DNA of 64,000 bases from a virus (taxonomy: Duplodnaviria; Caudoviricetes), in the IMG/VR virus record IMGVR_UViG_3300038393_001263, positions 1-64,000 of that record; one strand, written 5' to 3'. Below, piece by piece: positions 2,165 through 56,619 of this stretch. The translations under genes and the position numbers were made by a program. The notes under the pieces were generated by a model that was not told where the DNA came from, searched no databases, and was given only the letters and a program-made list of their open reading frames with translations. Numbering within the stretch: the stretch's first letter is position 1; every line of letters starts with the position of its first letter.

Positions 2165-3274
2165 TTGAAAGCGACGTTTTCCCGCAAGCCCCTGCTCGAC
2201 GCCTTCAACACCGTCTCCAGCGTCGCGCCGACGCGATCGCCCAAGCCGATCCTTCAGAATGTAAAGCTGTCGCTGCGTGACGGCGAGGCAAGCCTGTCCG
2301 CCACCGATCTTGAGGTGGCAATCACTCATCAAGTCGATGGCGTGTCCCTGATCGATGACGGGCAAGCGATCCTCCCGGCCATTCGATTTGGCTCCATCCT
2401 CAAGACGTCGTCTGATGATGAACTGACCATTGAAGTGGCCGACGACAAGTTGATGATCCGTGCCAAGCGATCGAAGTTCGCGCTGCCGCGAGAAGACCCG
2501 GATCTCTTTCCATCCATCGGCGAATTCGAGAGCGAGAACTACAAGTCGCTGGCCGCCGGGGACATTCGGAAGTTGGTGCGAAGGACGCACTTCGCGGCCG
2601 ATCTCGACTCGGCTCGATACGCACTCGGCGGCGCGTTGGTCGAGTACACCGACGATTCGCTAATCTTCGTCTGCACCGATGGACGGCGGCTCGCGAAGGC
2701 TTCCGTGCCAGCCGAGACAGTCGGCGATCTGGACTTCGGACAGCCGGTTCTTCCGCTCAAGTCAATGCGTCTCATTGACAAAGCAATCAACGACGATGGT
2801 GATTTAGCCCACTTCGCTATCAAAGTCGGCACATCGGCGATGGTTCGAACGTCGCAGGCTACGGTCTACGCTCGTTTGGTCGAAGGCCGGTTTCCACGAT
2901 ACGCCGACGTGTTTCCAAAGACATGCACGCTGTCCGTTCCGATCGTGGCCGGCGCGTTCCGGTCGGCGATCGATCAGGCTGCGGTCGTTACCAGCGACGA
3001 GAGCCGTGCGGTGTCGTTCCGGTTCTCGAAAACCGGAATCGAACTGAGCAGTCGATCGGCAGATATCGGCGAATCCAAGGTTGAGCTTCCGATGGAGATC
3101 GACGCGGAGGAAGACCTGGTCGTCGATATGGACAACCGATTCGCGGGCGAAGGCATCAAGTCGTTGGATCCAGAGAGCGAGTTGGCCGTCGATCTGGTCG
3201 ACTCCAAGTCGCCGGTGACATTTCGGTTGGGTGATGAATTCACCTACGTCGTGATGCCGCTGACGCGGGACTGA
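2165..3274 (+). CDS. dnaN: DNA polymerase III beta sliding clamp
   Basis: 369 aa; motifs RSPKPILQNV, LSATDLE, RYALGG, VCTDGRRL, RLVEGRFPRY and C-terminal YVVMPL; AAGGAG before the TTG start. Confidence 0.95.
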   Translation: MKATFSRKPLLDAFNTVSSVAPTRSPKPILQNVKLSLRDGEASLSATDLEVAITHQVDGVSLIDDGQAILPAIRFGSILKTSSDDELTIEVADDKLMIRAKRSKFALPREDPDLFPSIGEFESENYKSLAAGDIRKLVRRTHFAADLDSARYALGGALVEYTDDSLIFVCTDGRRLAKASVPAETVGDLDFGQPVLPLKSMRLIDKAINDDGDLAHFAIKVGTSAMVRTSQATVYARLVEGRFPRYADVFPKTCTLSVPIVAGAFRSAIDQAAVVTSDESRAVSFRFSKTGIELSSRSADIGESKVELPMEIDAEEDLVVDMDNRFAGEGIKSLDPESELAVDLVDSKSPVTFRLGDEFTYVVMPLTRD

Positions 3275-3319
3275 GTGAAACACTAGGAAGCACTGCGAGA
3301 AATCGTGGTGAATAGGACG

Positions 3320-3432
3320 GGTTTTGCACGGCGTGGCACAGTTGGGCACGGCTGGGCTCGGTCCGGCTTGGGTGTTCATCACTTCTGGCGACGGTCTTAA
3401 ATGTGGCCGTCGTCGGGATCTCCGAAAGGAGA
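3320..3432 (+). ncRNA. Putative guide RNA unit 1
   Basis: ggtTT tgcAC ggcGT ggcAC agtTG ggcAC ggcTG ggcTC ggtCC ggcTT gggTG; hairpin 3385-3416 with loop ttaaatgt; hairpin tctcc-gaaa-ggaga. Confidence 0.75.
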
Positions 3433-3436
3433 AAGC

Positions 3437-3552
3437 GGCGTGGCGAGGGTTGGTGGGGCCGGGCATGGCATGGCATGGCGCGGCGAGGGTTCTACGAACA
3501 TCTGCGGGCGTCTTTAAATGTAGGCGTTCGCGGGTTGTCTCCTGCGGGGGAC
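3437..3552 (+). ncRNA. Putative guide RNA unit 2
   Basis: NN = GT GA TT GG CG AT AT AT GC GA (TT); loop ttaaatgt; hairpin gtctcc-tgcg-ggggac. Confidence 0.75.
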
Positions 3553-3562
3553 TGACGGCGCT

Positions 3563-3679
3563 AGCGGGGTTTGGCTTGGATGGGCATGGTGAGGTTGGGC
3601 ATGGTGAGGCAAGGAATCTTCGGATTATCTGCGGGCGCTCTGAAATGGGCGTCCGTGGGTTGCTCGCGGAAACGCGGGT
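3563..3679 (+). ncRNA. Putative guide RNA unit 3
   Basis: NN = GG TT TT TG AT GA TG AT GA AA (AT); loop tgaaat; hairpin gctcgcg-gaaa-cgcgggt. Confidence 0.75.
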
Positions 3680-3683
3680 AGAG

Positions 3684-3797
3684 GGTTCGGCTTGGTGTTG
3701 CCAGGCGCGGCATGGCTGGGCAAGGCGTGGTTCGGGCGTTCATCGCATCTGCAATCGGCCTTGAATGCGGCTGATTGTGGGTTGTCCCGAAAGGGGC
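3684..3797 (+). ncRNA. Putative guide RNA unit 4
   Basis: NN = TC TT GT CA GC AT TG AA GT TC (CG); loop ttgaatgc; hairpin gtccc-gaaa-ggggc. Confidence 0.75.
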
Positions 3798-3801
3798 AGG
3801 A

Positions 3802-3906
3802 GGTTTGGATTGGCAACGCATTGCGTGGCACGGCAGTGCTAGGCGAGGCAAGGTTCCATCGGGCGGCTTAAACGTGTCGCCCGATGGGTTGTCCGCGAGA
3901 GCGGAC
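3802..3906 (+). ncRNA. Putative guide RNA unit 5
   Basis: NN = TT TT AA AT GT AC AG TA GA AA (TC); hairpin catcgggcggc-ttaaacgt-gtcgcccgatg; hairpin gtccgc-gaga-gcggac. Confidence 0.75.
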
Positions 3907-3916
3907 TGGTGGTTCT

Positions 3917-4020
3917 GGCCTGGCTCGGCATGGCAGTGCAGGGCGTGGTCGGGCGCGGTGCGGCAAGGGTTCTTCGGAACATCCACGTGCCTTCTTAAAT
4001 GCGGGGGTTCGTGGGTTGGC
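3917..4020 (+). ncRNA. Putative guide RNA unit 6
   Basis: NN = CT TC AT AG AG GT CG GC GC AA (TT); loop ttaaatgc; second hairpin degenerate. Confidence 0.7.
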
Positions 4021-4051
4021 TGACAGATTGAACGACAACAGGAGCAAGCGA

Positions 4052-4567
4052 ATGTTCAATGTGAGCGAGGAAGTGAAAGCGAAGGTTGAAGCGGCGTTGT
4101 CCGTCCTACGTGAATACAAGCGAGGCGACCGCGTTCCGCACGAGGAACTTGAGAAGGCGACCGGGTTGAATCGGGACTGCGGCACCGACTACTACCGGAT
4201 CGTCATGAAGGCCCGCAAGAGGCTCCGCGACGAGGACGGAATCTGGTCGTGTTATGAACAGTCGGAAGGCTTCCATCTCTACACGGAGCGGGAGACCTTG
4301 ACCGAGGAACCGAAGTTCCGAAGCAAGAAAGCCCGCAGGCAGATGCGTTACGTCGTGAAAGCCGCGACGGCGATCCCGACGAACTCGCTGTCGTTCACCC
4401 AGAGGCGACTTCAGGAGGCGGTCGTCGACAGCGCGAAGGAGATGGCGCGCAAACTGTCGGCCAAGGCGGAAGTGGCCGAACAGGCGTCCCAGCCCTACAA
4501 GGGAATGCCGATCCGCAAGGTGGAGTCGTTGACTCCTCCGGTCGTTCAAACGAGTGCTGCTGTTTGA
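4052..4567 (+). CDS. Accessory protein inside the repeat locus; possible winged-helix DNA-binding N-terminus and helical C-terminus
   Basis: AGGAG about 10 nt before ATG 4052 (the longer ORF call from 3884 runs through the repeats); GDRVPHEELEKATG resembles an HTH; basic, 171 aa. Confidence 0.75.
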   Translation: MFNVSEEVKAKVEAALSVLREYKRGDRVPHEELEKATGLNRDCGTDYYRIVMKARKRLRDEDGIWSCYEQSEGFHLYTERETLTEEPKFRSKKARRQMRYVVKAATAIPTNSLSFTQRRLQEAVVDSAKEMARKLSAKAEVAEQASQPYKGMPIRKVESLTPPVVQTSAAV

Positions 4568-4615
4568 TTCTTTCTTTCCAGTTTTGATTTCTACAAGGCA
4601 AGGGGTTTTCATCGA

Positions 4616-5284
4616 ATGGCTACGACGTACGAGTTCGAGTTCAAGGGCAAGCAACCGCTCCTCATGCACCAGGACAATATCGCCGGCCAGGAACTCATCA
4701 AGCGATGGCAGAAGGATCCGAAAAACAAGGCTGTTTCGGAGAAGGGCGACGACCGCTCGCCCGCATGGACGTGGCAGATTTACCTGTACACCGGAGACGG
4801 CAAGGTCGTCATGCCTTCGGAGTGCGTCATGTCGTGCATCCGAAAAGCTGGAGCGATGATCGAGATCCCAGGCGGCAAGCGCGGCAAGACGTTCAAGGAC
4901 GCGACGCAGTACGGGATCATCCCCGCCGACGAATCGTTCCAGTTCTTCTGCTGCGGCAAGCCTCTGGAACTTGAGCCGATCACGGCTCTATGGGAGGACA
5001 ACGACTTCGCGAAGCATCAGGATCTAGCCAAGAGCCTTGGCTTCGAGTTGTTCGTGAAGCGGGCGAAGATCGGCCAGTCCAAGCACATCCGGGTCCGCCC
5101 GATGTTCAAGGATTGGAGCATCAAGGGGTCGTTCGTCGTCACTGAGCAAGCGATCACGAGCCCGATCCTCGCCGAAATGCTGATGCTCGCGGGCGACCGC
5201 GTGGGGCAAGGCGACTGGCGTCCGTCGTCGAAGACGCCGGGGCCTTACGGCACGTTCAACGTCAATCTGAGTCAGGTTGCATAA
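4616..5284 (+). CDS. Cas7/RAMP-like RNA-binding protein (putative guide-RNA effector)
   Basis: 222 aa; N-terminal strand YEFEFKGKQPLLMH; VMPSECVMSCIRKAG resembles the Cas7/Csm3 IPxSSLKG.IR box; C-terminal Gly-rich loop AGDRVGQGDWRP..GPYGTF; flanked by the repeat arrays. Confidence 0.75.
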   Translation: MATTYEFEFKGKQPLLMHQDNIAGQELIKRWQKDPKNKAVSEKGDDRSPAWTWQIYLYTGDGKVVMPSECVMSCIRKAGAMIEIPGGKRGKTFKDATQYGIIPADESFQFFCCGKPLELEPITALWEDNDFAKHQDLAKSLGFELFVKRAKIGQSKHIRVRPMFKDWSIKGSFVVTEQAITSPILAEMLMLAGDRVGQGDWRPSSKTPGPYGTFNVNLSQVA

Positions 5285-5286
5285 GC

Positions 5287-5397
5287 GGACAGGCGCGGCG
5301 TGGGTGGGAAAGGCACGGCTCGGCCGGGCTGGGTGAGGGCGTAAGCATCTGCGGCCAGCCTTGAACGTGGCTGGTCGCGGGTTGTCTCGAAAGAGAC
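5287..5397 (+). ncRNA. Putative guide RNA unit 7
   Basis: NN = CA GC GT TG AA AC TC CG TG GA (CG); loop ttgaacgt; hairpin gtctc-gaaa-gagac. Confidence 0.75.
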
Positions 5398-5407
5398 TGG
5401 TGTTGTG

Positions 5408-5522
5408 AGACTGGCATGGCCAGGTCGGGCGAGGCATGGCGTGGCAAGGCCAGGCGTGGGCGTCCATCGCTTTCGCGTGCAGTCTTAAATGCGGCTGCAT
5501 GCGGGATCTCTCAGAAGAGAGG
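5408..5522 (+). ncRNA. Putative guide RNA unit 8
   Basis: NN = (CT) AT CA CG GA AT GT AA CA GT (CG); loop ttaaatgc; hairpin tctctc-agaa-gagagg. Confidence 0.75.
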
Positions 5523-5528
5523 GCAATA

Positions 5529-5667
5529 GGCTCGTACAGGCGCGGTTCGGCGGGGCCTGGCATTGCGAGGCGAGGTCAGGTGCGGCGAGGCCTGGTTTGG
5601 CATGGGTGTTCATCACATTCACGGTCGATCTTAAATGCGGTCGGCCGTGGGTTGTCCCGGAAGGGAC
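5529..5667 (+). ncRNA. Putative guide RNA unit 9 (longest tract, 14-16 pentamers)
   Basis: NN = (TC CA) GC TC GG CT AT GA GA CA GC GA CT TT AT (TG); loop ttaaatgc; hairpin gtccc-ggaa-gggac. Confidence 0.75.
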
Positions 5668-5673
5668 TTTCGA

Positions 5674-5769
5674 GGTGGGGTATGGCTGGGCACGGCATGG
5701 CTATGCTTGGTCCGGTTTCGCCACTGCCGGTCTTGAATGTGGCCGGCAGTGGCATGCTCCTCTAGGAGT
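5674..5769 (+). ncRNA. Putative guide RNA unit 10 (shortest tract, 9 pentamers)
   Basis: NN = GG AT TG AC AT TA TT CC TT; hairpin gccactgccggtc-ttgaatgt-ggccggcagtggc; hairpin gctcc-tcta-ggagt. Confidence 0.72.
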
Positions 5770-5773
5770 AAGT

Positions 5774-5895
5774 GGCCGGGCGAGGTACGGCTTGGCAAGG
5801 CAACGCGTGGCGGGGTTTGGCGGGGCATGGGCGTTTATCGCATCTGCCGTCGATCTGAAATCATGGTCGGCGGCGGGTTGCCCGCGCAAGCGGGC
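5774..5895 (+). ncRNA. Putative guide RNA unit 11
   Basis: NN = CG GA AC TT AA AA GT GG TT GG AT (CG); loop tgaaatcat; hairpin gcccgc-gcaa-gcgggc. Confidence 0.75.
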
Positions 5896-5899
5896 AGAT

Positions 5900-6011
5900 G
5901 GCTTGGTTTGGCACGGCGCGGCTGGGCACGGCTAGGCCCGGCGAGGACTCTTCGGAGTATCTGTGGTTGATCTTGAATGTGGTCAATCGCGGGTTGTCGG
6001 TGAAAACCGAC
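5900..6011 (+). ncRNA. Putative guide RNA unit 12
   Basis: NN = TT TT AC GC TG AC TA CC GA (CT); loop ttgaatgt; hairpin gtcggt-gaaa-accgac. Confidence 0.75.
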
Positions 6012-6021
6012 TGTCGGCGCT

Positions 6022-6102
6022 GGTTTGGTCTGGCCTTGCATGGTCCGGCTAGGCGCGGCTTGGCAAGGGCAACGCACGGTCAACCCCACGATCGTGCGTT
6101 GC
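6022..6102 (+). ncRNA. Putative guide RNA unit 13 (terminal, divergent scaffold)
   Basis: NN = TT CT CT AT CC TA GC TT AA (CA); single 13-bp hairpin gcaacgcacggtc-aaccccac-gatcgtgcgttgc. Confidence 0.65.
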
Positions 6103-6186
6103 AAATTTCCTTGCCAGACGCTATTATTTTTAGGAAGGAGGCGCGTCGCCATCCAAATCCGTGAGATTCATCAAGAGGTTGAGGAC

Positions 6187-6675
6187 ATGCAGGAGCCAGA
6201 ATCGACGACCGGGCGGAAGTACAAGTCGGTGGAGGATTACGTCGAGATCGCGAACGATTTGATCAAGAAGTACGGCGGGATTCCGGGGTCCAGGTGGCTG
6301 ATCGACAACGGGCTGAACGCCTTCTACACCTGCATGCGGAAGCACCCGGAGCCGTTCAAGGACATGCCGCGAGTGAAAGGGGAGCCGATGCCGCTGGATG
6401 ATCCGTCGTTGCGCAGGACGCCGAAGCATCGGCCCGACCTGCTGCTCGTGTCCGAGATCCTGGATTTCGCACAGTGCAGCATGCCCGACGACTGGCGGCT
6501 CGACCTCAGTTTCGACAACGGCGGTTGCGGCGTCAGCGTGATCGCGCCGAACGGATTCCGCCGTGTCGTGCCGGTCGCCGAGGGTCGCGGGCTCATCGAT
6601 TCGATCGAGATCCACGTCAACCGGGCGAGGAAGGAAAACGGACTGGAACCCGTGAAATGGGAGACCGCCAAGTGA
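6187..6675 (+). CDS. Hypothetical protein
   Basis: GAGG before ATG 6187; 162 aa. Confidence 0.6.
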   Translation: MQEPESTTGRKYKSVEDYVEIANDLIKKYGGIPGSRWLIDNGLNAFYTCMRKHPEPFKDMPRVKGEPMPLDDPSLRRTPKHRPDLLLVSEILDFAQCSMPDDWRLDLSFDNGGCGVSVIAPNGFRRVVPVAEGRGLIDSIEIHVNRARKENGLEPVKWETAK

Positions 6676-7061
6676 GCGTGATTGAGCAGTTGGCCGAGCA
6701 AACATTGAAGAACGTCGAAGACGAGCCGAACAGGGGCGAGCCCAAGGGCGACGTGATCCTGACGTTGGCAGTGATTTCAGCGGTTATCAAACTATTAATC
6801 CTGGCATACGACTGCTGGAAGGCGTCCCCCGGATCGTCATTGAAGAAATGCCAGAACCCGAACTGGCTCCAGCGATTCCGCATGAGGCGCGTCGTCCGCA
6901 CGGTGCTCAACGTCGAAGGCGTCAGCGAGAAGATGGAAGAGGCGTGCGCGGCCTTGCTCAAGACCGGCAAGGCGATCACGCAGGATCAACTCATGGCGGC
7001 GGTGATCGAGAACCAGAACGACCGGACGCTGCCGGACCTGGCGGCGAAGTATGGGGTGTAA
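6672..7061 (+). CDS. Hypothetical membrane-anchored protein
   Basis: GTGA overlap; hydrophobic segment VILTLAVISAVIKLLILAY. Confidence 0.6.
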   Translation: MSVIEQLAEQTLKNVEDEPNRGEPKGDVILTLAVISAVIKLLILAYDCWKASPGSSLKKCQNPNWLQRFRMRRVVRTVLNVEGVSEKMEEACAALLKTGKAITQDQLMAAVIENQNDRTLPDLAAKYGV

Positions 7062-7062
7062 G

Positions 7063-7260
7063 ATGGTAGTTTTCAAACTCTGGGTCGAAATGCTTCTCGA
7101 AGCCATTCTACTTCTCATGCTCGCCGCATTTGTCATGTCGGTCTTGCATTATGCGAGTTCTTGGGCTGGACCCAAGCCTTCACCCGAGGTCGACCGCATC
7201 GATCGCCTTGAAGCCAAGATCGACCGCATCCACAACGTCATCGTCGGACCACAACATTGA
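7063..7260 (+). CDS. Small membrane protein
   Basis: One TM segment followed by a short coiled coil. Confidence 0.5.
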   Translation: MVVFKLWVEMLLEAILLLMLAAFVMSVLHYASSWAGPKPSPEVDRIDRLEAKIDRIHNVIVGPQH

Positions 7261-7547
7261 TAACTGGCACTGAAATAGACAAGGCGTTGGAAACCGCCGA
7301 CCCGCGACTCGCCCTCGCCCTGTCGCTGATCTCGGGCCGGCGCAAGTGGAAATCGCTGACGGACGACGAGTGCGTGCTGCTCGGGCACGGACGAAGCTAC
7401 ATAAGCAGACGCAGGGGTCGCATGGAGAACACGGCCGATTGGGCGCGGCTGTGGTGCGGCAAGAACGACTTCCTCGCCCAAGCCGAGCGGATCGTGTTCG
7501 AGTACCTGACTAACAAGACGAGTGAAACCGGAGGCAATTCAGAATGA
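7257..7547 (+). CDS. Hypothetical protein (paralog of 7544..7924)
   Basis: RLALALSLISGRRKWKSLTDDECVLLG motif; TTGA overlap. Confidence 0.6.
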   Translation: MITGTEIDKALETADPRLALALSLISGRRKWKSLTDDECVLLGHGRSYISRRRGRMENTADWARLWCGKNDFLAQAERIVFEYLTNKTSETGGNSE

Positions 7548-7924
7548 GCGGTACTGAGAAGATCGATTTTTTCCCTGAATCATGGGATGTCAAATGGGAC
7601 GAAAGCCATCGACTGCGGACGGCGATCGGCCTTCTGAGCGGTCGGATCGAGTTTGCGAACATGGACGACTTCCAGTGCCGCCAACTCGGCTACCATGCGG
7701 AACGCCGAAACTACGACAGCAAGGATGTGACGGCCGACACCGTCGTTCGCCTCTCGAATCCCAGAGAGGCGCGTAAACGCGCTGAAAACATCGTCATAAG
7801 TGTAATCAGCGCCTTGATGCACTTCTGTAACGAGCACGAACAGCAGCAGAAGAAACTTCTCGAACGCATCGAGAAACTGGAAGCCGCGAACACCCTTGCC
7901 TTGGAGGTTGCTGAGAATGCCTGA
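7544..7924 (+). CDS. Hypothetical protein
   Basis: RLRTAIGLLSGRIEFANMDDFQCRQLG motif; GGAGG before the start. Confidence 0.65.
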   Translation: MSGTEKIDFFPESWDVKWDESHRLRTAIGLLSGRIEFANMDDFQCRQLGYHAERRNYDSKDVTADTVVRLSNPREARKRAENIVISVISALMHFCNEHEQQQKKLLERIEKLEAANTLALEVAENA

Positions 7925-8441
7925 CCTGAATCTCGTCCAGCTCATGGGCCGACTGACCGCCGATCCCGAATTGCGGCGCATCCCGAGCGGCGCCGCCGTG
8001 ACCGAACTCCGCATGGCGGTTAACAAGTCGTTCAAGACTCGCGACGGCGAGAAACGAGAGGAAGTGCTCTATGTCGACGTGACGCTTTGGGAGAAGACCG
8101 CCGAGATCGCCTGCCAGTATCTCCGCAAGGGGAGTCCGGTCTACGTCCAGGGTTCGCTCAAGATGGACGAGTGGGACGACAAGACGACAGGCGAGAAGCG
8201 GTCGAAGATCAAGGTGAACGGCGAGAGTTTCCAGTTCCTCGAAAGCAGGCCGCGCGACGAAGGCGGAAACGGCGGCGGCTACCAGAGCCAGCGACAGCCC
8301 GAACCGCAACGTCCGCAGGGTCGACCTTCCGCGCCGCCCGCCGGTCGTGGTGGATACAGCGGGCAAGGCGGTCGTGGGACCGCGCCGCCGGTCACGCAGA
8401 GGGAAGTGGACGAGTACGACGACTCGGACATTCCGTTCTAA
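7917..8441 (+). CDS. ssb: Single-stranded DNA-binding protein
   Basis: NLVQLMGRLTADPELR OB-fold start, Gly/Gln-rich linker, acidic tip DDSDIPF. Confidence 0.95.
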   Translation: MPDLNLVQLMGRLTADPELRRIPSGAAVTELRMAVNKSFKTRDGEKREEVLYVDVTLWEKTAEIACQYLRKGSPVYVQGSLKMDEWDDKTTGEKRSKIKVNGESFQFLESRPRDEGGNGGGYQSQRQPEPQRPQGRPSAPPAGRGGYSGQGGRGTAPPVTQREVDEYDDSDIPF

Positions 8442-17609: not shown

Positions 17610-18803
17610 GTGGCGACGTACACATACAAGTTCCGGATATCACCCAACGCCGATCAAGCCTCTCGGCTGTCCCGGAATTTCGGCGCATGCCGGTTTGTGT
17701 ACAACTACTTTCTCGCCAAGAGACAACAGGTATACCGAGAGAACGGGAAGGGGTCAACGTATTACAAAGACTGTGCCGACCTCACCCAATTGAAGAAAGA
17801 ACTGCCGTGGATCAAGGACGCAAATTCCCAGTCCTTGCAGAAGGAGTTGAGGAACCTTGACACCGCCTATAGTCAGTTCTTCAAGAAGAAGGCCCGCTTT
17901 CCCAAATTCCACTCCAAGCACAAGGACAAGCAATCTTTCCATGTTCCCCAAGGAACACGGTTGAAGAACGGGCGGTTGTATATCCCGAAGTTTAAAGAGG
18001 GTATTCGGCTCAAGCAACACCGCCCTATCGATGGCGAGATCAGGCATGCGACGGTCATCCGGAACCGATCTGGCCAGCACTTTGTCTGCATCTGTGTTGA
18101 GCGGGATTTGCCGAAATTCGAGACGAACTCCAACATGGTTGGCGTCGATCTCGGCTTGAAGGACTTGGCGACGTGTAGCGACGGCGAGGTCTTTGAGAAC
18201 ATCCGACCCTATCGCAACCTGCACCGCCGTCTCCGCCGACTACAGAAGTCGGTCAGTAGAAAGGTCAAGGGGTCGCACAGCTATATCAGAGCCAAGCAGT
18301 TGGTGGCTAAGTGCCACCAGAAGATCGCCGACATCCGGAACAACCATCTCCATCGGGTCAGCAAGTCACTGGTCAACGAGAATCAAGTGATCGTGCTTGA
18401 AGACCTCCATGTCAAGGGGATGATGGCAAATCGGAGGTTGGCTAAGTCGGTGGCGGACGTGTCATTTCATGAATTGGCGAGACAGATCGAGTACAAGGCG
18501 GGGTGGTATGGGCGGGAAGTGATCCGGGTGGACCGCTGGTATCCTTCGTCCAAGACCTGTCATGCGTGCGGATTCATCAATGAAGGATTGACGTTAGAAG
18601 ACAGGGAATGGACATGCCCGATTTGCAAGAAAGAACATGATCGAGACTTCAACGCCTCGATGAATATCCTTGCCGAAGGCATGCGCCAACGAAGCACAAC
18701 CGTGGGAACCACGGGGGTAGCGTGTGGAGAGGGTATTAGACTTCCATCGGGAAGCTGCTCTCGTCGAAGCACAGAAGCCGCTGGATATTTAGCCCAGCGA
18801 TAG
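17610..18803 (+). CDS. tnpB: TnpB RNA-guided endonuclease
   Basis: HTH start TYKFRISPN...FGACRFVYN; RuvC-I GVDLGLK; RuvC-II VLEDLHV; Zn finger SSKTCHACG..CPIC; RuvC-III HDRDFNASMNI. Confidence 0.95.
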   Translation: MATYTYKFRISPNADQASRLSRNFGACRFVYNYFLAKRQQVYRENGKGSTYYKDCADLTQLKKELPWIKDANSQSLQKELRNLDTAYSQFFKKKARFPKFHSKHKDKQSFHVPQGTRLKNGRLYIPKFKEGIRLKQHRPIDGEIRHATVIRNRSGQHFVCICVERDLPKFETNSNMVGVDLGLKDLATCSDGEVFENIRPYRNLHRRLRRLQKSVSRKVKGSHSYIRAKQLVAKCHQKIADIRNNHLHRVSKSLVNENQVIVLEDLHVKGMMANRRLAKSVADVSFHELARQIEYKAGWYGREVIRVDRWYPSSKTCHACGFINEGLTLEDREWTCPICKKEHDRDFNASMNILAEGMRQRSTTVGTTGVACGEGIRLPSGSCSRRSTEAAGYLAQR

Positions 18804-34759: not shown

Positions 34760-35971
34760 ATGGCCGACAATATTGAACTGAGCCCCGGCGCAGGCGGCGC
34801 GAAGATGCGGGCCTACAAGGACGCGTCGGGCAACACCTACGCCCCGGCCGCCGTCGTCTACATGACCTCGACGACCGACGGCGCGGCCGTCGCGCAGCCG
34901 GTGCAGGTCGGCCACGGCCTCCCGGTCCAGCAGGACGGGACGTTCGTCGTGAACCCCGGCGACACGCCGAACACCAATCCCTGGCTGACCTCCATCGCGC
35001 AGGGCGGCAACACGGCGATCGTCAACGGCAGCGGCCAGTTGACCGTCCTCGCGGCGATCGACGGCACCGTGGCGGTCGGCTCGATCGCGTCGATCACCAA
35101 CCCCGTTACGGTGGTCCAACCGACTCCCGCAAGCCTCACCTGCACCGCGAACATCGCCGCCGGCCAGACCCTCGCGACGGTGACGAACGTCGGCTCGGTG
35201 ACGAGCGTGACCAATCCGGTCACGGTGGCCCAGAACACCCCCGGCAACCTGCTCGCGACCGTCTCGATCGCGTCGGCCCAGACCCTCGCGAACGTGACCA
35301 CGGTGGGGACGATCACGAACCCGGTCACGGTCGCGCAGGCGACGGCCGCGAACCTCAAGGCGACGGTCAACATCGCGGCGGCTCAGACGCTCGACACGGT
35401 GACGACCGTCGCCGCCGTGACCAGCATCACGAACCCGGTGACGATCGTCCAGGCCACCGCCGCGAACCTGAACGCGACCGTGTCCATCGCCGCCAACCAG
35501 ACGGTGGCCAACGTCACCACCGTCAGCACCATCACCAATCCCGTGACCGTGGCGCAGGCGACCGCTTCCAGCCTCAACTGCACGGCGATCATCGGGGCCG
35601 GGACGAACCTGATCGGCAAGGCGGCCGTCGGCCAGGATACGAGCGCGATCTACAACGGCGCGACCGCCCTGACGCCTTCGTACGCGGTCATCTCGGCCAG
35701 TTCGTCCGGCGACAACCAGATCGTCGCGGCGCAGGTCGGCAAGAAGATCCGCGTGCTCCAGTGGAGCCTGACGTCGAACGGCACCGTCTCGGCGACCTGG
35801 CGATCGGGCACGACGCCGATCACCGGGGCTCGGCCGCTGATCCAGTACGCCTCGTGCGGCGGCTCGTTCTCGCCGATCGGGCGGTTCGAGACGGCGGCGG
35901 GTTCGGCGCTGAATCTGAACCTCTCGGGCGCGACCGCCGTCGGCGGGGAGATCGCCTACGTCCTGATTTGA
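34760..35971 (+). CDS. Fibre-like virion protein with internal TNPVT repeats
   Basis: Thr/Val/Ala-rich; five TNPVT-initiated repeats. Confidence 0.7.
   Translation: MADNIELSPGAGGAKMRAYKDASGNTYAPAAVVYMTSTTDGAAVAQPVQVGHGLPVQQDGTFVVNPGDTPNTNPWLTSIAQGGNTAIVNGSGQLTVLAAIDGTVAVGSIASITNPVTVVQPTPASLTCTANIAAGQTLATVTNVGSVTSVTNPVTVAQNTPGNLLATVSIASAQTLANVTTVGTITNPVTVAQATAANLKATVNIAAAQTLDTVTTVAAVTSITNPVTIVQATAANLNATVSIAANQTVANVTTVSTITNPVTVAQATASSLNCTAIIGAGTNLIGKAAVGQDTSAIYNGATALTPSYAVISASSSGDNQIVAAQVGKKIRVLQWSLTSNGTVSATWRSGTTPITGARPLIQYASCGGSFSPIGRFETAAGSALNLNLSGATAVGGEIAYVLI
35085..35585 (+). repeat. Coding tandem repeat of alternating 38/35-codon units
   Basis: TNPVT(V/I)xQ.T.(A/G)(S/N)L...I(A/S)A.QT(L/V)..VT.V repeated 4.5 times. 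Confidence 0.8.
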
Positions 35972-56384: not shown

Positions 56385-56619
56385 TCTCGAAACCATCAGG
56401 CCGGGCGACCACGTTGCGGCGATCGTCCACGAGAAAAGCGTCTGTTACGCCGATTGCGACGGCCACCAATTCACCATCCAAAACGGCGAGGTCTTTGTCG
56501 TCGCCGATCCGCCGACTGACAATCGGAGAAGGCACGCAAGGCTTATCGACGACCGTTCGCCGCGCGGATACTTCCTGTCCGCCCCTCATCACCTGAACCG
56601 CATGGAGCCTGCTGAATGA
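56377..56619 (+). CDS. Hypothetical protein
   Basis: GGGAGG before TTG; VDLETIRPGD...VFVVADPPT. Confidence 0.55.
   Translation: MVDLETIRPGDHVAAIVHEKSVCYADCDGHQFTIQNGEVFVVADPPTDNRRRHARLIDDRSPRGYFLSAPHHLNRMEPAE

What the first reader, a model, noticed from the sequence alone, without database searches (positions are those of the whole stretch)
4616..5284. Stand-alone minimal Cas7/RAMP-like protein outside any CRISPR-cas operon
Seen: 222 aa with three RAMP-like hallmarks, namely the first strand with PLLMH, the P.(S/E)...IR..G helix and the terminal Gly-rich loop GQGDWRP..GPYGTF. No other cas gene is in the window. Inference: a single-subunit filament effector that would act by binding or steric repression, for example against competing phages, instead of cleavage.
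Basis: partly seen in the sequence, partly recalled or inferred. Interest (0 to 1): 0.85.

Follow-up and report, generated by a model that had tools for sequence, protein, structure and literature searches.

The report
Phage VIPR locus: Vipr protein plus guides
The 222-residue protein is a Vipr, the small Cas7-like protein of the phage RNA-guided DNA-silencing systems (VIPR) first described in 2026; it sits beside an accessory gene and 13 guide-RNA units, so it is a clear new member of a known kind, not a new system.

Summary
The ORF at 4616-5284 (+) is real and is a Vipr protein. It shares 30% identity with the SUSP1 Vipr (BLASTP E 1e-16). That protein (PDB 36pp) is its only PDB sequence match. 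The AlphaFold2 model (pLDDT 93) matches only Cas7-type RAMPs at the top of both fold searches. The SUSP1 residues that hold the GG of the guide are conserved here as H18, R161, D200, W201 and R202.

The gene is not stand-alone. It has 6 guide units upstream and 7 downstream on the same strand. Each unit has 9-14 YNNGG repeats with conserved Y and GG and near-random NN. Twelve units end in a conserved, covarying hairpin tail. The gene upstream (4052-4567) is a Vap1 homologue. The record is an uncultured phage of 73.6 kb with no Cas1, no Pfam RAMP match and no CRISPR array.

New here:
- a large two-part array of 13 guides
- vap placed before vipr
- a three-hairpin tail not found in the 160 related loci or the SUSP1 locus searched

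I could not identify guide targets or the host. Verdict: new member of a known kind.

The parts
3317..4030 (+). Upstream vrRNA array, six units. U1 3317-3433, U2 3434-3552, U3 3565-3678, U4 3681-3797, U5 3799-3906, U6 3914-4030. Each has 10-11 YNNGG repeats followed by a tail of about 55-65 nt.
   Evidence: Regex and register analysis, alignment A1, tail model hits, single-sequence folds.
4052..4567 (+). vap1-like accessory gene (171 aa, P0121). Predicted winged helix followed by two long helices.
   Evidence: Translation. A profile of 62 homologues next to vipr genes hits SUSP1 Vap1 at 46 bits, E 2e-16, with Vap1 left out of the profile. AF2 pLDDT 93 with H-b-H-H-b-b topology. Weak Foldseek hits to MarR/Rrf2/MntR-type regulators.
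4568..4615 (+). T-rich spacer between vap and vipr. It ends in CAAGG-CAAGG followed by GGTTTTCATCGA, which resembles a repeat-to-tail junction. AAGGGG lies 10 nt before the ATG.
   Evidence: Read directly from the sequence. Its role was not tested.
4616..5284 (+). vipr gene (222 aa, P0001): minimal Cas7-like RAMP.
5285..6068 (+). Downstream vrRNA array, seven units. D1 5285-5398, D2 5410-5523, D3 5536-5667, D4 5671-5771, D5 5771-5893, D6 5897-6011, D7 repeat tract 6019-6068. Each has 9-14 YNNGG repeats. D1-D6 carry the conserved tail.
6069..6112 (+). 13-bp hairpin plus T-rich run that ends unit D7 and the locus. It is terminator-like and has the stem and loop sizes of tail hairpin H1.
   Evidence: Terminator scan, fold.

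Best explanation
This is the effector gene of a complete phage VIPR (Viral Interference Programmable Repeat) locus, most like the published type II systems of phage SUSP1 and the P. fulva prophage. The order on the + strand is six vrRNA units, vap1-like gene, vipr, seven vrRNA units, terminator.

Inferred mechanism, by homology to SUSP1:
- Each vrRNA is bound by one Vipr protomer per YNNGG unit, forming a helical filament.
- H18 and D200 would read the first G. R161 and W201 would hold the second G. R202 and helix 1 (E69) would hold the pyrimidine.
- The two variable bases of each unit are left exposed.
- These NN bases pair with double-stranded DNA in an NN-skip-NN pattern, skipping one base per unit.
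- The bound filament blocks transcription of a competing phage, prophage or satellite, without cutting.
- The winged-helix Vap1-like protein would enhance this.

Shown here: the homology, the fold, the conserved contact residues, the repeat code, the strand-specific structured tails, the phage context and the lack of self-targets. Inferred only: expression and processing of the RNAs, filament formation, the 1-nt skip rule for this clade, repression and the targets.
For: Protein:
- The only PDB sequence match is 'SUSP1 Vipr protein' 36pp (E 4.9e-11 for the single sequence, 4e-18 for the family profile).
- BLASTP to SUSP1 Vipr gives 30% identity over 213 aa, E 1e-16. Both proteins fall in PHROG 4652.
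- SUSP1 H17, R138, D177, W178 and R179 align to H18, R161, D200, W201 and R202, which are invariant in 44 homologues (residue roles).
- The model has pLDDT 93. Top fold matches are Cas7-type RAMPs.

Guides:
- 15 runs of at least 4 YNNGG units lie at 3342-6068, all on the + strand, with none elsewhere in the 73.6-kb record. Markov shuffles give a mean of 0.26.
- Over 141 units, position 1 is Y in 88%, positions 2 and 3 have entropy 1.97 and 1.94 bits, position 4 is G in 92% and position 5 is G in 100%.
- Tail hairpin H1 has 14 pairs, 10 of them with compensatory changes, plus G-U pairs that work only on the + strand RNA.
- The tail model finds 12 copies, including 2 left out of the seed alignment, and nothing else in the window.

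Context:
- A Vap1 homologue lies next to vipr.
- All 80 related IMG/VR loci and 77 of 80 metagenome loci carry YNNGG runs on the vipr strand; in the metagenome set the count is 406 runs against 1 on the other strand.
- The record is a phage with portal, capsid, tape measure, DnaB and clamp genes.
- No guide matches its own genome above shuffled guides.
Against: - No experimental data exist for this locus. No RNA-seq shows the vrRNAs or their ends.
- I found no convincing natural target. The best hits (all 9 canonical units of D2 and of D6) are at the number expected by chance, and no second guide hits the same records.
- The tail is not the SUSP1-type pseudoknot, and the tail model does not match related loci. 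Capping and processing may therefore differ.
- The gene order vap-vipr is the minority arrangement, seen in 6 of 80 related loci.
- The type II assignment rests on Vap1 and Vipr homology. The authors' phylogeny and type table were not available.
Confidence: 0.9

Rival explanations
1. A VIPR system that destroys its targets, as proposed for the nuclease-associated types III-V, with Vipr recruiting a nuclease.
For: Published VIPR types III-V carry predicted nucleases or helicases. The record is only 78% complete, so an unseen partner gene cannot be excluded.
Against: The only accessory gene in the locus is a Vap1 homologue with a winged-helix-like fold and no nuclease domain. Nuclease-bearing types are reported mainly from defence islands of cellular genomes, not phages.
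Confidence: 0.05
2. A relic or hijacked CRISPR-Cas Cas7 subunit, for example a phage mini-CRISPR or an anti-CRISPR decoy that poisons host Cascade or Csm complexes. It would be unrelated to the flanking repeats.
For: The fold is Cas7-like (Z about 10 to Csm3, Cmr4 and type VII Cas7).
Against: There is no cas gene, Cas1, Pfam RAMP match or CRISPR array in the record. Sequence identity to Cas7 proteins is 7-14%, against a significant sequence match to SUSP1 Vipr. The residues that bind GGY are conserved. YNNGG arrays accompany homologues in nearly all of 160 loci.
Confidence: 0.02
3. The YNNGG tracts are DNA elements, such as iterons or binding sites for Vap or Vipr, or G-rich structural DNA. 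They would not be guide RNAs, and the protein would have another nucleic-acid-binding role.
For: Transcription of the arrays was not shown here. Only one sigma-70-like promoter and one terminator-like site were found in 3100-6300, and neither lies inside an array.
Against: The tails keep a 14-bp hairpin through compensatory changes and use G-U pairs that exist only in + strand RNA. All repeats are on the gene's strand. In SUSP1 the equivalent tracts are transcribed and co-purify with Vipr.
Confidence: 0.03

Closest known systems
SUSP1 Vipr / type II VIPR system (Escherichia phage phiSUSP1, KT454805; PDB 36pp; bioRxiv 10.64898/2026.04.26.720920, 10.64898/2026.04.26.720927, 10.64898/2026.10.15.759431)
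   Same: Homologous Vipr: 30% identity, same PHROG, conserved GGY-contact residues. Homologous Vap1. YNNGG guide tracts of 9-14 units on both sides of the genes on the same strand, each followed by a structured tail. Phage-borne. No cas genes.
   Different: 13 guide units against 4. vap lies upstream of vipr instead of downstream. The tail is three hairpins (about 65 nt, with a CUUAAAUG loop) instead of a pseudoknot of about 40 nt, and the tail model does not hit the SUSP1 locus. The protein is 222 aa against 195 aa. The carrier is an uncultured phage of about 60% GC with unknown host. Targets are unknown.
CRISPR Cas7-family RAMPs (Csm3, Cmr4, type VII Cas7, Cas7-11 domains, type IV Csf2)
   Same: RRM core, thumb and glycine-rich loop. 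VIA Z 8-10.6 over 130-170 residues. Backbone subunits that polymerise along a guide RNA.
   Different: 7-14% identity and no Pfam RAMP match. No cas operon or CRISPR array. The guide is a pentanucleotide-repeat RNA read two bases per protomer, not a spacer read five of every six bases.
Type IV CRISPR-Cas (plasmid-borne, nuclease-free interference)
   Same: An RNA-guided system carried by a mobile element, used against rival mobile elements and acting largely by binding or silencing. This comparison is from established knowledge, not tested here.
   Different: Multi-subunit Csf complex with Cas6 processing, CRISPR arrays and spacer acquisition in trans. VIPR has one protein and repeat-coded guides.

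Membership tests
VIPR system (Vipr + vrRNA) | Protein homologous in sequence to an experimentally characterised Vipr | tested here: met
   PDB 36pp 'SUSP1 Vipr protein' is the only hit: E 4.9e-11 for the single sequence, 4e-18 for the profile. BLASTP gives 30% identity, E 1e-16. Shared PHROG 4652.
VIPR system (Vipr + vrRNA) | Minimal RAMP fold: single RRM core, thumb, glycine-rich loop | tested here: met
   AF2 pLDDT 93. Foldseek rows are all CRISPR RAMP or effector chains, mostly Cas7-type. VIA top 19 are Cas7-type, Z 10.6-8.0. The G-loop G-x-G-D-W-R-P is at 197-203.
VIPR system (Vipr + vrRNA) | Residues that recognise GGY in SUSP1 (H17, R138, D177, W178, R179) | tested here: met
   They align to H18, R161, D200, W201 and R202, invariant in 44 homologues. 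E71 aligns to E69 (roles).
VIPR system (Vipr + vrRNA) | Adjacent same-strand tracts of 9-16 YNNGG repeats with conserved GGY and hypervariable NN | tested here: met
   13 tracts of 9-14 units. 15 runs against 0.26 expected, all on +. NN entropy 1.97 and 1.94 bits, against G 92% and G 100%.
VIPR system (Vipr + vrRNA) | Conserved structured 3' tail after each repeat tract (a pseudoknot in the SUSP1 clade) | tested here: met
   12 of 13 units have a conserved tail. H1 has 14 bp, 10 with compensatory changes. The tail model gives 12 hits and each tail folds alone to the same shape. No pseudoknot was seen. The tail type differs from SUSP1.
VIPR system (Vipr + vrRNA) | vipr-accessory (vap) gene in the locus | tested here: met
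   P0121 family profile against SUSP1 Vap1: 46 bits, E 2e-16. Homologues lie next to vipr in 70 of 80 related loci.
VIPR system (Vipr + vrRNA) | vrRNAs expressed and bound by Vipr as a filament | not testable with these tools
   Needs RNA-seq, pull-down or cryo-EM.
VIPR system (Vipr + vrRNA) | Guides match foreign mobile elements by the 1-nt skip rule and do not match their own genome | tested here: inconclusive
   No self-match above shuffled guides. Seed-and-extend scans of IMG/VR with 6 guides gave only chance-level hits and no convergence.
VIPR type II (SUSP1 / P. fulva type) | Placement in the authors' Vipr phylogeny together with vap1 association | tested here: inconclusive
   The Vap1 homology is met. 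The authors' tree and type table are figures or data files that were not held.
CRISPR-Cas Cas7 (effector backbone subunit) | Encoded in a cas operon next to a CRISPR array | tested here: not met
   No Cas1 or Pfam RAMP match in the record. No spaced direct repeats. PADLOC and NCBIfam are empty for this protein.
CRISPR-Cas Cas7 (effector backbone subunit) | Cas7-type RAMP fold | tested here: met

The most novel reading that the evidence does not exclude
This phage clade may have a VIPR sub-architecture not yet described. It has two long arrays (6 + 7 guides) with no room for per-guide promoters and no ribozymes. Each guide is capped by a clade-specific three-hairpin tail without a pseudoknot. 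That would imply that long precursor transcripts are cut into guides at the small inter-unit hairpin, by a host RNase or by Vipr or Vap1. This would be a CRISPR-like processing step inside a type II-like VIPR.
Probability: 0.3. Interest if true: 0.5.

Novelty: new member of a known kind. Interest (0 to 1): 0.32.

Why it matters
VIPR systems were described only in 2026. They are proposed to be older than CRISPR and are being considered as very small programmable DNA binders. This locus adds a clean, complete example from an uncultured GC-rich phage. It has one of the larger guide sets (13), a reversed gene order and a different RNA tail. It is therefore useful for mapping the natural variation of tails, array organisation and guide processing, and as a source of 13 natural guides whose targets could reveal this phage's competitors. 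It does not change the picture of how such systems work.

Tried and rejected
- Pfam, NCBIfam and PADLOC gave nothing for the protein. Rfam found nothing in 3000-6500, so there are no hammerhead ribozymes between guides. Megablast of 3000-8000 against phages found no match.
- Self-targeting: no guide matches the 73.6-kb record above shuffled guides.
- Targets in 80 related VIPR loci: none above the null.
- Targets in IMG/VR: 16-base seeds from D3, U6, D2, U2 and D6 and an 18-base seed from D5 were scanned and then extended.
  - The best results are all 9 canonical units of D2 matched in L151/G001 (in frame in a 98-aa ORF) and all 9 of D6 matched in L170.
  - Each of these is expected about 0.5 times by chance from the seed counts.
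  - D3, U6 and U2 reached 79-86% NN identity; the D3 and U6 matches sit in conserved genes.
  - Four full records were fetched and scanned with all 13 guides. No second guide stands out in any of them. I rejected these as demonstrated targets.
- Host inference from the phage-borne TnpB: the best genome match is 46% identity, which is uninformative.
The viral, genome and metagenome scans returned only loci of at most 50% identity.
- The tail model does not match the SUSP1 locus or the 80 related viral loci, and gives one marginal hit in the 80 metagenome loci.
- The Vap fold search gave only weak winged-helix hits with E of 0.04 or more.
- The VIPR type table could not be read because the figures and data files are not held.

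Full report
**Observation.**
The ORF at 4616-5284 on the + strand is open, starts with ATG and gives 222 residues. PLLMH is at 14-18. PSECVMSCIRKAG is at 67-79, which is a helix in the model. GQGDWRPSSKTPGPYGTF is at 197-214. The protein is real and widespread. There are 1354 database homologues at E<=1e-3, almost all unnamed metagenomic proteins of about 220 aa. It matches PHROG 4652, of unknown function, at E 8e-20. Pfam, NCBIfam and PADLOC give nothing.

**Identity of the protein.**
- A search of all PDB chain sequences returns one significant hit, 36pp 'SUSP1 Vipr protein'. The E-value is 4.9e-11 with the single sequence and 4e-18 with a 44-sequence profile that covers both the N- and C-terminal parts.
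- tblastn against phage genomes finds about 30% identical 'hypothetical proteins' in 123 records, mostly Felixounavirus/Suspvirus phages including SUSP1.
- Direct BLASTP to the SUSP1 protein gives 30% identity over 213 residues, E 1e-16. The SUSP1 protein falls in the same PHROG.
- Vipr is the RAMP protein of VIPR (Viral Interference Programmable Repeat) systems. These are described in three 2026 preprints: 10.64898/2026.04.26.720920, also PMC13142463; 10.64898/2026.04.26.720927; and 10.64898/2026.10.15.759431.
- The cryo-EM paper names the SUSP1 residues that hold the guide's GGY. H17 and D177 contact the first G. R138 and W178 contact the second G. R179, E71 and M72 contact the pyrimidine.
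- In an alignment with 44 family members these map to H18, D200, R161, W201, R202 and E69 of the window protein. The first five are invariant.

**Fold.**
An AlphaFold2 model built on 44 homologues has mean pLDDT 93 and pTM 0.87.
- Foldseek against the PDB returns only CRISPR RAMP or effector chains among the 50 rows shown. Most are Cas7-type: type VII Cas7, Csm3, Cmr4, Cas7-11/gRAMP and type IV Csf2. The best E-value is 3e-5 and TM is about 0.5.
- The Foldseek-independent VIA search gives Cas7-type RAMPs as its top 19 hits, with Z 10.6-8.0 over 130-170 aligned residues at 7-14% identity.
That PDB copy ends on 8 April 2026, so the Vipr structures themselves were not in the fold library.

**The gene is not alone: guide units.**
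- A scan for tandem YNNGG units found 15 runs of 4 or more units, all on the + strand and all between 3342 and 6068. There are none on the other strand and none elsewhere in the 73.6-kb record. Markov shuffles give 0.26 runs on average.
- Read in register, these form 13 units: six upstream (U1-U6, 3317-4030) and seven downstream (D1-D7, 5285-6112). Each has 9-14 repeats. The published range is 9-16.
- Over all 141 repeats, position 1 is a pyrimidine in 88%. Positions 2 and 3 have entropy 1.97 and 1.94 bits, with all 16 dinucleotides used. Position 4 is G in 92% and position 5 is G in 100%. No two guides share more than half of their NN bases. This is the published vrRNA code.

**Tails.**
- Twelve units end in a conserved tail. 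It consists of a small hairpin H0 (absent in U5 and D4), a 13-14-bp hairpin H1 with a CUUAAAUG-type loop, the motif GGGUUG, and a small tetraloop hairpin H2 (absent in U6).
- RNAalifold on ten tails predicts H1 with 14 pairs. Ten of them show compensatory changes, and several are G-U pairs, which fit only the + strand RNA.
- A covariance model built from those ten finds exactly 12 copies in the window. These include the two variants left out of the seed (D4 at 33.5 bits, U5 at 24.4 bits). It finds nothing else.
- D7 ends instead in a 13-bp hairpin plus a T-rich run that scores as a terminator.
- Rfam finds nothing, so the array is not of the ribozyme-interspersed type.
- The SUSP1 tail is a shorter pseudoknot. 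The tail model does not hit the SUSP1 locus or the 80 related viral loci, and gives one marginal hit in the 80 metagenome loci. The tail is therefore clade-specific.

**Accessory gene.**
- The ORF between the upstream array and vipr starts at the ATG at 4052, which has an AGGAG upstream, and encodes 171 aa.
- Alone it has only four database homologues and no Pfam or PHROG match. Its direct BLASTP to SUSP1 Vap1 is weak (E 0.016).
- An iterative profile search over the ORFs of 80 related viral loci finds a homologue next to vipr in 70 of them.
- A profile of 62 of these sequences, built without Vap1, hits SUSP1 Vap1 at 46 bits, E 2e-16, over nearly its whole length. It is therefore a Vap1 homologue.
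- Its model (pLDDT 93) has a winged-helix topology followed by two long helices. Foldseek hits are weak (E of 0.04 or more) but are mostly MarR/Rrf2/MntR/OmpR-type DNA-binding domains. This fits the published description of type II Vap proteins as predicted DNA binders.
- In 64 related loci vap follows vipr, as in SUSP1. In 6 it precedes vipr, as here.

**Family-wide link.**
All 80 related IMG/VR loci carry YNNGG runs on the vipr strand, and only three have a single run on the other strand. Of 80 further metagenome loci, 77 do, with 406 runs on the vipr strand against 1 on the other.

**Context.**
- The record is an IMG/VR virus contig of 73,615 bases, estimated 78% complete. It has portal, major capsid, tape-measure, DnaB-like helicase and sliding-clamp genes.
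- The clamp gene ends at 3274, just before the first guide.
- No Cas1, Pfam RAMP match or CRISPR-like spaced repeat is present.

**Mechanism.**
By homology, one Vipr protomer binds each YNNGG unit, hides GGY and presents NN. The filament then pairs with dsDNA while skipping one target base per unit, and it represses transcription without cutting. In SUSP1 this silences a satellite's recombinase gene and decides the outcome of phage-satellite competition. All of this is inferred for the present locus.

**Targets.**
- No guide matches its own genome above shuffled guides. This agrees with the published lack of self-targeting.
- No target was found in the related VIPR loci.
- I used six IMG/VR scans with 16-18-base seeds from guides D3, U6, D2, D5, U2 and D6, and extended each hit.
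- The best cases are matches of all nine canonical units of D2 (record G001, 56494-56519, in frame with a 98-aa ORF so that the skipped bases fall on wobble positions) and of D6 (L170). With 10 and 8 seed hits respectively, one such extension is expected about half the time by chance.
- In four complete target-candidate records no second guide scores above its null.
- Targets therefore remain unknown. So does the host: the phage-borne TnpB has no close genomic relative.

**Limits.**
I could not fetch the contigs of the closest relatives (51-67% identity) to test guide turnover.
- The authors' type table and tree were not available as text. 'Type II-like' is my inference from the Vap1 and Vipr homology.

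**Earlier notes of this scan.**
Other first-stage notes on this same genome describe the 13 units, the tail scaffold and the accessory gene. My analysis reached the same features from the sequence and agrees with them.

**Verdict.**
It describes a system that is already published. This is a new, well-formed member of the VIPR family. Its secondary peculiarities are a 6 + 7 array, the vap-vipr order and a three-hairpin tail.

Noticed in passing
window 17610-18803 (+): A TnpB-type protein of 397 aa with Pfam HTH_OrfB_IS605, OrfB_IS605 and Cas12f1-like TNB domains, and PHROG 506 at E 5e-135. The same phage therefore also carries a member of a second RNA-guided nuclease lineage. The closest genomic relatives are only 46% identical.
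   Followed up: partly
window 4596-4615: Just before the vipr ATG the 5' leader reads CAAGG-CAAGG followed by GGTTTTCATCGA. This resembles the last repeats plus the start of a vrRNA tail (compare GGGCGTTCATCGC). It may be a vestigial guide end or a Vipr-binding site for autoregulation.
   Followed up: no
window 6069-6127: The hairpin that ends guide D7 has the same stem and loop sizes as tail hairpin H1 (13 bp, 8-nt loop) and doubles as a terminator-like site. A sigma-70-like promoter (TTGCAA-17-TATTAT) for the next gene overlaps its 3' end.
   Followed up: partly
window 3852-3906 (U5) and 5714-5771 (D4): Two of the 13 guide units have a variant tail without the first small hairpin. U5 also has the most degenerate repeat tract, with 6 of 11 canonical units. 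These may be decaying or functionally distinct guides.
   Followed up: partly
window 35070-35621: Five tandem copies of a 114-nt (105-114 nt spacing) imperfect repeat lie inside a large + strand ORF in the structural region. It is probably a repeat-domain tail or fibre protein.
   Followed up: no
G001:C1:56494-56519 (locus L151 4920-4945): A complete 63.9-kb IMG/VR phage has a perfect NN-skip-NN match to all nine canonical units of guide D2. The match is in frame in a 98-aa ORF of unknown function, with the skipped bases on wobble positions. It is at chance level on its own and no other guide hits that phage.
   Followed up: yes
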